A stretch of DNA of 64,000 nucleotides from Escherichia coli (GTDB taxonomy: Bacteria > Pseudomonadota > Gammaproteobacteria > Enterobacterales > Enterobacteriaceae), in the NCBI RefSeq assembly GCF_003991155.1, contig NZ_CP031293.1; one strand, written 5' to 3'. Positions 45,801-48,800 of the stretch are shown in pieces. Made by a program: the position numbers. Within the stretch, counting starts at the first letter, position 1. Each line of letters begins with the position of its first letter.

Positions 45801-48800
45801 GTATATGGCTGAAGTGGAGTCCGGCGTTTACCCGGGCGAAGAACACAGTTTCCATTAAGGAGTGACGTTGTGTTAATTATCGAAACCCTGCCGCTGCTGC
45901 GTCAGCAAATCCGCCGCCTGCGTATGGAAGGTAAGCGCGTGGCGCTGGTGCCAACCATGGGTAACCTGCACGATGGCCATATGAAGCTGGTCGACGAAGC
46001 CAAAGCCCGCGCCGATGTGGTCGTCGTCAGTATTTTCGTTAACCCAATGCAGTTTGACCGCCCGGAAGATCTGGCACGTTATCCACGGACCTTGCAAGAG
46101 GACTGCGAAAAGCTGAACAAACGTAAAGTGGATTTAGTTTTTGCGCCTTCGGTAAAAGAGATCTACCCGAACGGTACAGAAACCCACACCTATGTTGATG
46201 TTCCCGGTCTTTCCACCATGCTGGAAGGTGCCAGCCGTCCGGGACATTTTCGCGGCGTTTCGACTATTGTCAGCAAACTGTTCAACCTGGTCCAGCCGGA
46301 CATCGCCTGCTTCGGTGAAAAGGATTTTCAGCAACTGGCGCTGATCCGCAAAATGGTTGCCGACATGGGCTTTGATATTGAGATTGTCGGAGTGCCGATT
46401 ATGCGCGCGAAAGACGGTCTGGCGCTCAGTTCCCGTAACGGCTATCTGACGGCGGAACAACGTAAAATTGCGCCGGGTCTGTACAAGGTCTTAAGTTCAA
46501 TTGCCGACAAATTGCAGGCTGGCGAACGGGATCTCGATGAAATTATTGCTATTGCCGGGCAAGAACTGAATGAAAAAGGTTTCCGTTCCGATGATATTCA
46601 GATTCGCGATGCCGACACATTGCTGGAAGTCTCTGAAAACAGCAAACGTGCAGTGATTCTGGTAGCCGCCTGGCTTGGCGATGCCCGCCTGATCGACAAC
46701 AAAATGGTCGAACTGGCGTAATACTTAACTGGCGCTACGGCTGATGGCGCCAGTTATTCATTGCCACGTCATCTGTAAGCAATTATTCATATCGTAGACA
46801 ACTTAGTTAGAGTTAATTAGCTTATCAATCTCTGCAAGAGATAAAGCTGTCACCTCTGCAACGTCTTCCCGAGACATTCCTTTACTCAGAAGACGCTGGG
46901 CCAGTCTTACCTTCTGGAGTCCCTCTTTATATCCCTTCTGAAATCCCTTCTGAAATCCCTTCTGAAATCCCTTCTCTTCAAACCACTGCGCCAACGTCTG
47001 CCTGGTTTCTCTCCGTGTCTTTATTTCCATATGTTCCCTTAATTATCTGGTCAGTTAACAATAACAATTATCTGGCTATAACTGATAATGCAGATAACTT
47101 AGCTAATCAGCTTATCAACCTCAGCAAGAGGTAAATTTGCCATCTCTGCAACGTCTTCCCGAGACATCCCTTTACTCAGAAAACGCAGGGCGAATTCCTG
47201 TCTTACTTCCTGTCTAACCTCTTGTATTACCTCCTGTCTTACCTCCTGTCTTACCTCCTGCCTTTCCTCCTGTCTTCCCTTCTCTTCAAACCACTGCGCC
47301 AGCGTCATCATAGACTCCCCTCCCGTTTCCCTGTCTCTCAGCACACCATAAAACAAATCCGCTTGTTCAGTATGACCGCGTTGCAGCATATAGTTTTGCA
47401 TGGCAACTAACTGACTTCCGCTAGTGTACCCTTCGTCAATCAGCGTGACCAGTTGCTCCAGCAATAACATTAAGTCGCGTTGGCGAATATGTTTTTGCAG
47501 CAGTTCGAGAATCGCAATCCGCCGATGTTGCATGATTTCGTCATCCGGTGTGATAGTGATATCCACCAGCGGGAAAGGACTGTTATAGACGCGTCGCGCC
47601 AGCTCCGGCGAGTAAAACATATCAAACCAGCACATTGAGAGTGGATAAGGCGTGGCCTCGCCCTGATAAAACAAAATCGGCACCACCAGCGGCAGCTTAT
47701 CGTGATCCGCCTCCAGATGCCGGTGCATGGCGGCAATGGCATAGCGCATCATGCGAAAGGTCATTTTCTTATCCGGCTTGCTTTGATGTTCAATCACCAC
47801 ATGCAAATAACCGGGATTGCCCTGCATTTGTACGGAATAGAGTACGTCCGTGCTGTGTCCTTTCAGGCTTTCCTCAATAAAACTCCCCGACTCAAGATGC
47901 AGCGTGTCGAGGTCACACAGTTCGCGTAGCTCCGCTGGCAAATGAATATCCAGAAAGTCGCGAGCCGTTTCCGCATGCATTAAAAATTGTTTAAATACCG
48001 CATCATGCGGTGTGGTACTCGGTGCATCCATCTTCCCTGCCTTCCGTGCTGTCTTACGTGAAGGCAGTATCCAGTCAAGGCGCGCCGTCGTCAGCCGCCT
48101 CTTTTGTGTTTGCCGAGCAGCGTTCAGAGAAATTTCAATTGGTTACAGGTGTTACATGACTCGCTTCGGCACGGTACGCAAACTGCTGATGCAAATGCCG
48201 TCAGATGAGTAGACACTAAACAAAAATCGGGCAATACTGCGTGAGAATTTCCTCAAAGCAGGCATCGCCTGCTTCGTTAACGACAGGGTAGAAAGGTAGA
48301 AGTTATGATTCGCACGATGCTGCAGGGCAAACTCCACCGCGTGAAAGTGACTCATGCGGACCTGCACTATGAAGGTTCTTGCGCCATTGACCAGGATTTT
48401 CTTGACGCAGCTGGTATTCTCGAAAACGAAGCCATTGATATCTGGAATGTGACCAACGGCAAGCGTTTCTCCACCTATGCCATCGCGGCAGAACGCGGTT
48501 CGAGAATTATTTCTGTTAACGGTGCGGCGGCCCACTGCGCCAGCGTCGGCGATATTGTCATCATCGCCAGCTTCGTTACCATGCCAGATGAAAAAGCTCG
48601 CACCTGGCGACCCAACGTCGCCTATTTTGAAGGCGACAACGAAATGAAACGTACCGCGAAAGCGATTCCGGTACAGGTTGCCTGATTGTTATCCCTGCGG
48701 CTGGTTACTCACCAGCCGCGACATCGTCTCCAGCGAATCCGTTCTTAAGATATAAAGTCGTTTTAGTAACAACGGATTATCCCCCGGTTTTACTTTGCCT

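What the first reader, a model, noticed from the sequence alone, without database searches (positions are those of the whole stretch)
46722..48031. rpnC locus carries a second, stand-alone tail cassette with conserved flanks around a variable repeat core
The last ~230 bp of rpnC (47097-47313) and the adjacent small-ORF region (46801-47000) are paralogous. Both have a well-conserved 3-prime flank (...CTCTGCAACGTCTTCCCGAGACAT(T/C)CCTTTACTCAGAA...) and 5-prime flank (CTTCTCTTCAAACCACTGCGCCA), but the core between them is filled with different 12-bp repeat arrays (KGFQ repeats versus QEVR repeats). Rpn proteins are PD-(D/E)XK nucleases reported as toxic antiphage proteins whose C-terminal tails are hypervariable and are also expressed as small antitoxin-like proteins from internal starts. 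A free-standing tail gene with its own Shine-Dalgarno next to rpnC could be an extra antitoxin, or a donor cassette for tail switching by gene conversion. From memory, K-12 has only a short panC-yadD spacer here, so this looks strain-specific.
Basis: partly seen in the sequence, partly recalled or inferred. Interest (0 to 1): 0.7.

Follow-up and report, generated by a model that had tools for sequence, protein, structure and literature searches.

The report
Known spare RpnC antitoxin-tail gene (rpnCSs)
Next to the rpnC nuclease gene this E. coli strain carries a small separate gene that copies the nuclease's variable tail; this is real, but it was already described in 2023 as "rpnCSs", so it is not a new kind of element.

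Summary
A 75-aa ORF (46803-47030, minus strand) lies 68 bp downstream of rpnC (47099-48031). It is a paralogue of the RpnC C-terminal tail (BLASTP E=1e-19). Both copies have conserved flanks around different 12-bp repeat arrays, and these are the only strong tandem repeats in the 64-kb window.

The element is already published. Zhong et al. [quoted passage not shown] They report variable 4-aa repeats in RpnSs proteins, and loss by deletion or by fusion to the rpn N-terminal domain.

What I add:
- The cassette junction is present in 1555 of 5426 complete E. coli genomes (28.7%). K-12 lacks it.
- It sits at the same locus in E. marmotae and another Escherichia.
- The ORF is intact in all 19 two-copy isolate genomes sampled.
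- Its repeat core differs in length from the resident RpnC tail in 18 of 19.
- Identical cores (6) and C-terminal ends (8) occur at both positions in different strains, so tails are exchanged.
- The window differs from its nearest genome only by one 12-bp unit in the cassette.

Expression and function of RpnCSs remain untested. Novelty: already known. Interest: low.

The parts
47099..48031 (-). rpnC (RpnC-L), 310 aa, a YhgA-like PD-(D/E)XK recombination-promoting nuclease
   Evidence: ORF list. Pfam PF04754 Transposase_31 on residues 7-207, E=6.4e-87. NCBIfam TIGR01784, 277 bits against a cut-off of 52.1. 91% identical to K-12 RpnC, with the differences concentrated in the tail.
47411..48013 (-). 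Nuclease (PF04754) domain of RpnC, residues 7-207
   Evidence: Coordinates computed from the residue numbers.
47099..47311 (-). Predicted intragenic RpnC-S reading frame (70 aa, MMTLAQWFEEKG...), starting at ATGATG
   Evidence: Translation. The DNA from the SD through the start is identical to K-12, where RpnC-S was detected by ribosome profiling and SPA tagging (PMC10400941). The exact start codon is my inference.
47315..47324 (-). GGGAGGGGAG Shine-Dalgarno-like element of the internal start
47196..47280 (-). 12-bp repeat array of the rpnC tail (RQEV-type, 7.1 copies)
   Evidence: Tandem Repeats Finder. Protein core RQEERQEVRQEVRQEVIQEVRQEVRQEFALR.
47031..47098 (-). 68-bp AT-rich spacer between the rpnC stop and the cassette start; no terminator, no convincing promoter
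   Evidence: No promoter or terminator hit on the minus strand. RNA fold no better than shuffles, z=-0.57. The spacer has the same length in E. coli, E. marmotae and Escherichia sp. loci.
47035..47040 (-). AAGGGA Shine-Dalgarno-like element, 4 nt upstream of the cassette ATG
46803..47030 (-). Stand-alone tail gene (rpnCSs), 75 aa: MEIKTRRETRQ N-terminus, FQKG repeat helix, C-terminal helix-turn-helix
   Evidence: AlphaFold2 model with helices 6-19, 22-49, 54-61 and 65-73, mean pLDDT 72. Described as rpnCSs in PMC10400941.
46931..46975 (-). 12-bp repeat array of the cassette (FQKG/KGFQ, 3.8 perfect copies); 46931-46942 is the one unit absent from the nearest genome
46971..46993 (-). Conserved 5' flank (encodes LAQWFEEKG), cassette copy; the likely recombination substrate
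   Evidence: In the single-copy allele L011 the switch from rpnC-type to cassette-type sequence falls in this flank.
47279..47301 (-). Conserved 5' flank, rpnC copy
46854..46891 (-). Conserved 3' flank (encodes LSKGMSREDVAE), cassette copy
47144..47181 (-). Conserved 3' flank, rpnC copy
46727..46755 (.). GC-rich hairpin (AACTGGCGC...GCGCCAGTT) between the panC stop and the cassette stop; probable shared terminator, and the 3' limit of the duplicated unit
   Evidence: Fold on the + strand -26.1 kcal/mol, z=-3.07; the same stem forms on the - strand. Paralogy ends at TAACTG at its foot. Terminator function is inferred.

Best explanation
The small ORF is rpnCSs, a free-standing paralogue of the RpnC C-terminal tail, the module that acts as the intragenic antitoxin RpnC-S.

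Origin. It arose by a tandem duplication of about 300 bp covering the 3' end of rpnC up to the panC-proximal hairpin. The iTIS ATGATG is not conserved in the cassette, which has its own ATG and Shine-Dalgarno-like sequence. The 68-bp spacer has no terminator and no good promoter, so the cassette is most likely co-transcribed with the rpnC / rpnC-S transcripts (inferred).

Product. It encodes a long helix built of 4-aa repeats followed by a small helix-turn-helix, like other RpnS proteins that dimerise through that helix.

Variation. The 12-bp arrays in the rpnC tail and in the cassette slip independently. The conserved flanks allow unequal recombination between the two copies, so cores and C-terminal ends move between the cassette position and the rpnC tail position. 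These events include deletions that fuse the nuclease body to the cassette.

Function in this strain (inferred, not shown). The cassette helix core is 6 aa shorter than the resident RpnC tail and chemically different (FQKG versus RQEV). It is therefore probably not the neutraliser of the resident RpnC-L, which has its own matched in-frame RpnC-S. It behaves as a decoupled, spare specificity module.
For: Identity and anatomy.

Published description of rpnCSs, of repeat variation in RpnSs proteins, of loss by deletion or fusion, and of the repeat-number-specific neutralisation of RpnC-L: PMC10400941 and the commentary PMC10400984.

Distribution:
- The junction is present in 1555 of 5426 complete E. 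coli genomes, always chromosomal, once per genome in nearly all (1558 places, at most 3).
- The same locus and the same 68-bp spacer occur in E. marmotae and Escherichia sp. E4930.

Maintained as a gene:
- The ORF is intact in 19 of 19 sampled two-copy isolate genomes.
- pN/pS over the non-repeat codons is 0.42, against 0.31 for the rpnC tail.
- The model has a long helix plus a helix-turn-helix.

Independent slippage:
- The window and strain 2016C-3878 differ over 2.4 kb only by one 12-bp unit in the cassette.
- Strains sharing the same cassette core (L007, L008, L028, L029) have rpnC cores of 31, 35, 39 and 35 aa.

Exchange:
- Six identical cores and eight identical C-terminal ends are found at both positions.
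- The single-copy alleles L011 and L021 have an rpnC-type body and start joined to a tail whose modules are identical to cassette alleles of other strains, consistent with fusion.

Mismatch: core length differs from the resident tail in 18 of 19 genomes.

No terminator or structure in the spacer.
Against: - There are no expression data for RpnCSs. The paper tagged only RpnESs/YpaA, because K-12 lacks rpnCSs.
- Pfam-A gives no significant hit on this 75-aa protein. The NCBIfam Rpn model scores 40.6 bits, below its cut-off of 52.1. Foldseek finds no solved relative.
- pN/pS rests on only 43 codons and 10 alleles, and is confounded by recombination.
- Some database variants are frameshifted (P0028, P0038), and one genome has an IS3 in place of most of the cassette. 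Loss is therefore tolerated.
- One isolate (L017) has equal core lengths, and two metagenome contigs show near-identical or identical cores in both copies. Mismatch is not a rule.
- Single-copy alleles could be ancestral rather than fusions.
Confidence: 0.75

Rival explanations
1. Plain second dose of antitoxin: RpnCSs binds and neutralises the resident RpnC-L just as the intragenic RpnC-S does, simply decoupling antitoxin supply from toxin expression.
For: It is homologous to the antitoxin module. The commentary suggests decoupling could make regulation more flexible. In L017 the two cores have equal length, and in the metagenome contigs L019 and L022 the two cores are near-identical or identical.
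Against: In 18 of 19 sampled isolate genomes the core length differs from the resident tail: 25 versus 31 aa here, a difference that is not a whole number of 4-aa repeats. Zhong et al. found that one extra 4-aa repeat abolishes neutralisation of RpnC-L by RpnC-S, and the reverse. The repeat chemistry also differs (FQKG versus RQEV).
Confidence: 0.12
2. Functionless remnant: a partial tandem duplication of the rpnC 3' end that happens to keep an open frame and drifts by slippage.
For: - No promoter was found.
- NCBI's PGAP pipeline often annotates it as a partial or pseudo 'transposase' or as a hypothetical protein.
- About 71% of E. coli genomes do without it.
- Frameshifted variants and an IS3 disruption exist.
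- 12-bp slippage preserves the frame automatically.
Against: - The ORF, with the same ATG, SD and 68-bp spacer, is intact in 19 of 19 sampled genomes, including E. marmotae and another Escherichia whose tail codons have diverged considerably from their own rpnC copies.
- pN/pS is 0.42 overall and 0.17 in the N-terminal flank.
- The analogous RpnESs/YpaA is made in K-12.
- The cassette start codon is not the rpnC internal start (ATGATG is AGGCAG in the cassette), so translation depends on an ATG and SD-like sequence of its own.
Confidence: 0.15
3. Dedicated donor cassette for programmed tail switching by gene conversion, as in pilS/pilE-type antigenic variation. This would let the cell change toxin-tail and antitoxin specificity frequently.
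For: The two copies share conserved flanks around a variable core. Identical cores and ends occur at both positions across strains. L022 has the same core in both copies. Zhong et al. speculate that RpnL itself may initiate such recombination.
Against: - There is only one cassette, and it is a complete translatable gene rather than a silent fragment.
- Close relatives differ by repeat slippage, not by conversion.
- The clear exchange products retain only one copy, which fits deletion or fusion (L011, L021).
- The evidence for conversion with the donor retained comes from short metagenome contigs that could be chimeric.
- No switching frequency is known.
Confidence: 0.12

Closest known systems
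rpnCSs (RpnC-Ss) of Zhong et al. 2023, PNAS 120:e2307382120 (PMC10400941)
   Same: The same gene at the same place. [quoted passage not shown]
   Different: Nothing categorical. The window's allele has one more FQKG unit than the nearest sequenced genome. The paper does not report, in the text I could read, the frequency (28.7%), the systematic length mismatch with the resident tail, or the list of modules shared between the two positions.
ypaA / rpnESs downstream of rpnE in E. coli K-12
   Same: The same architecture: a stand-alone copy of the RpnS module directly downstream of its parent rpn gene. The protein was detected by SPA tagging.
   Different: An independent duplication: RpnESs clusters with RpnE-S and RpnCSs with RpnC-S. 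It is a different locus and is present in K-12.
Intragenic RpnS antitoxins (RpnA-S, RpnC-S, RpnP2-S) of Rpn toxin-antitoxin antiphage systems
   Same: A homologous long repeat helix plus helix-turn-helix. The repeat number sets the pairing specificity with RpnL.
   Different: Intragenic RpnS is translated in frame from within rpnL, so it necessarily matches the toxin tail ('obligatory coevolution'). The cassette is physically uncoupled and in most sampled strains does not match.
Orphan immunity or C-terminal-tip cassettes downstream of cdiA / rhs loci (comparison from general knowledge, not tested)
   Same: Spare specificity modules sit downstream of the main toxin gene and share a conserved recombination flank, so recombination can swap the active tip.
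   Different: Those orphans carry toxin tips together with immunity genes. Here the single module is at once part of the toxin tail and the antitoxin. There is only one cassette, and no displacement has been demonstrated experimentally.

Membership tests
RpnSs (stand-alone RpnS paralogue downstream of an rpn gene; Zhong et al. 2023) | Sequence homology to the C-terminal tail (RpnS region) of the adjacent Rpn protein | tested here: met
   BLASTP gives 54% identity, E=1e-19, to RpnC residues 235-310. The DNA alignment has 82% column identity.
RpnSs (stand-alone RpnS paralogue downstream of an rpn gene; Zhong et al. 2023) | A separate ORF immediately downstream of the parent rpn gene, on the same strand | tested here: met
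   46803-47030 (-), 68 bp after the rpnC stop at 47099. The arrangement is the same in 1555 complete E. coli genomes.
RpnSs (stand-alone RpnS paralogue downstream of an rpn gene; Zhong et al. 2023) | Four-amino-acid (12-bp) repeats in the first helix, varying in number between strains | tested here: met
   Tandem Repeats Finder array of 3.8 copies. Forty-seven distinct cassette cores of 7-27 aa occur among relatives. A one-unit difference separates the window from the nearest genome. The repeats start at residue 22, just outside the paper's '8 to 20 residues after the Met', because of the 9-residue N-terminal extension.
RpnSs (stand-alone RpnS paralogue downstream of an rpn gene; Zhong et al. 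2023) | RpnS fold: a long first helix within a three-helix, HTH-like unit | tested here: inconclusive
   The AlphaFold2 model shows helices 6-19/22-49, 54-61 and 65-73 at mean pLDDT 72, which is consistent. Foldseek against the PDB gave no significant match (best E=0.83, generic HTH proteins), and the sequence search of the PDB did not retrieve RpnA-S.
RpnSs (stand-alone RpnS paralogue downstream of an rpn gene; Zhong et al. 2023) | Match to the Pfam model of the Rpn C-terminal domain (PF27070 HTH_Rpn_C, or DUF4351 PF14261) | tested here: inconclusive
   The Pfam-A scan of this protein found nothing with E<=0.001. Close relatives carry a precomputed PF27070 hit, flagged 'weak' in some. NCBIfam TIGR01784 aligns to its C-terminal positions 213-273 at 40.6 bits, below the cut-off of 52.1.
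RpnSs (stand-alone RpnS paralogue downstream of an rpn gene; Zhong et al. 2023) | The protein is actually synthesised | not testable with these tools
   Only an SD-like AAGGGA and an ATG can be seen. The paper shows synthesis for RpnESs, not for RpnCSs.
Rpn antitoxin (functional RpnS) | Binds RpnL and blocks its toxicity, SOS induction and DNA cleavage | not testable with these tools
   By inference from the repeat-mismatch experiment and the 25- versus 31-aa cores, neutralisation of the resident RpnC-L is doubtful.
Rpn / YhgA-like PD-(D/E)XK nuclease (the neighbouring gene rpnC) | PF04754 nuclease domain, and orthology and synteny with K-12 rpnC (panD-rpnC-panC) | tested here: met
   PF04754 E=6.4e-87. 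TIGR01784 at 277 bits. 91% identity to K-12 RpnC. Synteny.
Programmed gene-conversion cassette systems (pilS/pilE-like) | Silent, non-translatable donor copies, usually several, that convert an expression locus while being retained | tested here: not met
   There is a single cassette and it is a complete ORF with its own start. The clear exchange products retain only one copy (L011, L021). Conversion with the donor retained is seen only in short metagenome contigs.

The most novel reading that the evidence does not exclude
The uncoupled cassette is kept deliberately mismatched to the resident tail, as an expressed spare specificity module. A single unequal recombination at the conserved LAQWFEEKG or LSKGMSREDV flanks would replace the toxin tail and its in-frame antitoxin together. 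That would reset the pairing specificity of the defence system in one step, for example to escape a phage factor that mimics or targets the current tail. Meanwhile the free RpnCSs may pair with non-self RpnC alleles that arrive by recombination. This goes beyond the published statement that rpnSs 'can be lost by fusion'.
Probability: 0.2. Interest if true: 0.5.

Novelty: already known. Interest (0 to 1): 0.2.

Why it matters
Rpn nucleases are a recently recognised toxin-antitoxin antiphage family in which the antitoxin is translated from inside the toxin gene, so the two must co-evolve.

The existence of rpnCSs, its repeat variability and its loss by fusion are already published, so the finding itself adds nothing new.

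The open part is modest. RpnCSs has never been shown to be expressed or to act. The survey here shows that it usually does not match the resident tail, yet shares modules with rpnC tails of other strains. That gives a concrete, testable lead on how tail specificity diversifies.

Tried and rejected
- **Pfam-A on the 75-aa protein:** no significant family.
- **Sequence search of the PDB:** only a designed HTH repeat protein and noise; RpnA-S was not retrieved.
- **Foldseek of the AlphaFold2 model against the PDB:** nothing below E=0.8.
- **PADLOC:** no model hits RpnC, and only noise hits the cassette.
- **Rfam on 46500-48400 at E<=1:** nothing, so there is no known RNA element in the spacer.
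- **Promoter and terminator scan:** nothing on the minus strand. An own promoter for the cassette could be neither supported nor excluded.
- **Exact-pattern scan of one genome per species for the junction (CCAGATAATTAAGGGAACNTATGGA):** one hit, an Escherichia-like contig in a MAG. The pattern was too strict to show taxonomic breadth.
- **Chimeric megablast query meant to count rpnC::cassette fusions in complete genomes:** failed, because the tool joins the rpnC and cassette pieces of two-copy genomes into one 'place'. The fusion frequency is therefore unknown.
- **Exact-sequence look-up of both window proteins:** 'not in the collection'. I do not use this as evidence of rarity, because the window's rpnC DNA is identical to that of an annotated RefSeq genome.
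- **Supplementary files of Zhong et al.:** not held, so I could not compare my counts with their Fig. S3 or Dataset S1.
- **O157:H7 longer panC-rpnC spacer:** I considered that it might hide a degenerate cassette. It is an unrelated ERIC-type insertion.
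Full report
**What is there**

The window around the finding is the E. coli panB-panC / rpnC / panD region.
- panC (45870-46721, +) converges on two minus-strand ORFs: a 75-aa ORF (46803-47030) and rpnC (47099-48031, 310 aa). panD follows at 48305.
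- RpnC carries the YhgA-like nuclease domain PF04754 (residues 7-207, E=6.4e-87). It scores 277 bits on the NCBIfam Rpn model.
- It is 91% identical to K-12 RpnC, and almost all differences lie in the tail.

**Checking the observation**

- The 75-aa protein aligns with RpnC residues 235-310 at 54% identity, E=1e-19. The DNA alignment has 82% column identity.
- A local alignment places the paralogy at 47306-47052 versus 46998-46751. The duplicated unit is therefore about 300 bp and runs about 45 nt beyond each stop codon, to the foot of a GC-rich hairpin (46727-46755) next to the panC stop.
- Both quoted conserved flanks occur exactly twice in the window.
- Between the flanks lie two different 12-bp arrays. 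One has 3.8 perfect copies encoding FQKG (46931-46975). The other has 7.1 copies encoding RQEV (47196-47280). These are the only tandem repeats scoring 60 or more in the whole 64-kb window.

**It is already described**

Zhong et al. 2023 (PNAS; PMC10400941) showed the following.
- All five E. coli rpn genes contain an internal start that yields a small protein, RpnS, corresponding to the variable tail.
- RpnS is the antitoxin of the full-length nuclease, RpnL.
- The tail contains 4-aa repeats whose number varies between strains.

[quoted passage not shown] They add that:
- it clusters with RpnC-S;
[quoted passage not shown] The accompanying commentary also notes the second RpnS copy as a decoupling of toxin and antitoxin. 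A search for later work found nothing further in the held library. The element, its variability and the fusion route are therefore known.

**Distribution**

- A junction-specific query (spacer plus cassette N-terminus, 46985-47105) hits 1555 of 5426 complete E. coli genomes (28.7%). The hits are always chromosomal, once per genome in nearly all cases, and at 95% identity or more in all but two.
- K-12 has 73 bp between rpnC and panC and no cassette.
- The cassette lies at the same place, after the same 68-bp spacer, in E. marmotae and Escherichia sp. E4930 assemblies and in a divergent E. coli lineage. The duplication is therefore old or has spread by homologous recombination.
- O157:H7 also has a long panC-rpnC spacer, but that is an unrelated ERIC-type insertion.

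**Is it maintained as a gene?**

- In the 19 isolate genomes with both copies that I examined, the ORF is intact, with the same start and spacer.
- Over the 43 non-repeat codons, pN/pS among 10 cassette alleles is 0.42 (0.17 in the N-terminal flank). The rpnC tail gives 0.31. This suggests constraint, but it is a small sample and recombination confounds it.
- The start is not inherited from rpnC. The internal ATGATG of rpnC is AGGCAG in the cassette, which instead uses an ATG 9 codons further upstream with its own SD-like sequence.
- The spacer has no terminator-like structure (z=-0.57) and no convincing promoter. Co-transcription with the rpnC / rpnC-S transcripts is the simplest reading (inferred).
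- An AlphaFold2 model (mean pLDDT 72) shows a long helix, residues 6-49 with one break, followed by two short helices. This fits the RpnS description. Structure and profile searches gave no significant confirmation.
- Counter-indications exist: rare frameshifted variants, an IS3 replacing most of the cassette in one genome, and inconsistent RefSeq annotation as a hypothetical protein, an RpnC/YadD family protein or a partial pseudo 'transposase'.

**Repeat dynamics**

- Among database relatives there are 47 distinct cassette cores (7-27 aa) and 27 distinct rpnC-tail cores (11-43 aa).
- Over 2.4 kb the window is identical to strain 2016C-3878 except for one extra 12-bp unit in the cassette (46931-46942).
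- Conversely, four genomes with the same cassette core (L007, L008, L028, L029) have rpnC-tail cores of 31, 35, 39 and 35 aa.
- Both arrays therefore slip independently and recently.

**Match or mismatch**

- In 18 of the 19 two-copy isolate genomes the cassette core differs in length from the resident RpnC tail. In the window it is 25 versus 31 aa by my delimitation, and the difference is not a whole number of repeats.
- In the one equal-length case (L017, 27 and 27 aa) the sequences are very different.
- Zhong et al. showed that adding a single 4-aa repeat to either RpnC-S or RpnC-LS abolishes neutralisation, and adding it to both restores it.
- By inference, the cassette protein is unlikely to neutralise the resident RpnC-L, which has its own matched RpnC-S (predicted at 47311-47099, in a region identical to K-12).
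- Two short metagenome contigs do show near-identical or identical cores in both copies (L019, L022). Assemblies of repeated sequence from short reads can be chimeric.

**Exchange between the two positions**

- Six identical cores occur as a cassette in some strains and as the rpnC tail in others. One example is the K-12 core IEKGIQQGRQEVSQEFAQR, found as a cassette in P0047. Another is the common cassette core FQKGFQKGYKEGLQKVRLAQR, found behind the rpnC-type start MMTLAQW in P0017 and P0033.
- Eight identical C-terminal ends are shared in the same way.
- The complete genome EC2202095 (L011) has a single copy. Its rpnC body and internal start are joined to a tail whose core equals the cassette of strain 400625 and whose end equals the cassette of other strains. 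The switch falls inside the conserved LAQWFEEKG flank. L021 is a second such allele.
The demonstrated products fit unequal recombination or deletion, which is already noted in the paper. They do not show a programmed conversion system, and single-copy alleles might in part be ancestral.
- My attempt to count fusions across all complete genomes failed for a technical reason.

**Verdict**

The finding is real and correctly read as a free-standing RpnC tail or antitoxin-like gene with conserved flanks and a variable core. It is the published rpnCSs.

- A plain extra antitoxin is weakened by the systematic mismatch.
- A tail donor is supported in the loose sense of recurrent recombination between the copies, but not as a dedicated conversion mechanism.

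Novelty: already known. Interest: low (0.2).

The residual open question is whether RpnCSs is expressed and what it pairs with. The most novel reading not excluded is that it is a maintained, deliberately mismatched spare specificity module. I give that about a 0.2 probability.

Noticed in passing
L003 (E. coli O157:H7 FORC_044), between the panC stop at 922 and the rpnC stop at 1221: O157:H7 has no cassette. It carries an insertion of about 200 bp between the hairpin and panC. The insert contains near-perfect matches to the ERIC1R and ERIC2 primer sequences, so it is an ERIC/IRU repeat (recognised from memory of the ERIC consensus; sequence seen).
   Followed up: partly
L023 (NZ_OZ546911.1, isolate AF10), 35-1310: An IS3-family transposase gene sits where the cassette should be. 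Only the spacer and the first few cassette bases remain next to rpnC.
   Followed up: no
L028 (NZ_CP156662.1, strain PKF4), 1-115: A frameshifted site-specific integrase gene lies next to the cassette where panC is expected. This suggests an island insertion or rearrangement at the cassette/panC boundary.
   Followed up: no
L007 (NZ_CM136151.1), 1288-2220: rpnC is annotated as a pseudogene with an internal stop, while the downstream cassette and the RpnC-S-encoding tail remain open. Here the antitoxin-like modules outlive the toxin.
   Followed up: no
Annotations of the cassette in RefSeq genomes (L002-L030): The same small gene is annotated variously as 'hypothetical protein', 'RpnC/YadD family protein', or partial/pseudo 'transposase ... 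missing N-terminus', even where the ORF is intact.
   Followed up: partly
L031 (CALXDF010000219.1, 'uncultured Oscillospiraceae' MAG): A 4.3-kb contig, 93% identical to the window from upstream of panB into rpnC and including the cassette junction, is binned in an Oscillospiraceae MAG. This is probably a mis-binned Escherichia-like contig.
   Followed up: partly
window 47061-47089 (+ strand): A sigma-70-like site (ATAACA-17-GATAAT, 9 of 12 matches) lies in the spacer and points antisense into the rpnC tail. The number of such sites in the region equals the shuffle expectation, so it is probably chance.
   Followed up: no
window 47102-48031 (RpnC protein): The exact-sequence look-up reported that the window's RpnC is not in the 15-billion-protein collection. 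Yet the DNA is identical to that of strain 2016C-3878, where the protein is annotated as WP_000339919.1. The discrepancy is unexplained.
   Followed up: no
window 5746-5832 (-) and 13950-13995 (-): Rfam gathering-score hits to t44 RNA and to the HtrA 5' UTR thermometer. These are ordinary E. coli features unrelated to the finding.
   Followed up: no
Two-copy versus single-copy loci (L001-L030): In the small sample, rpnC tails in most two-copy E. coli genomes have long cores (27-39 aa), whereas single-copy genomes have short ones (15-24 aa). Exceptions are L024 and L025 (11 aa). The sample is too small to say whether having a cassette goes with expanded rpnC arrays.
   Followed up: no
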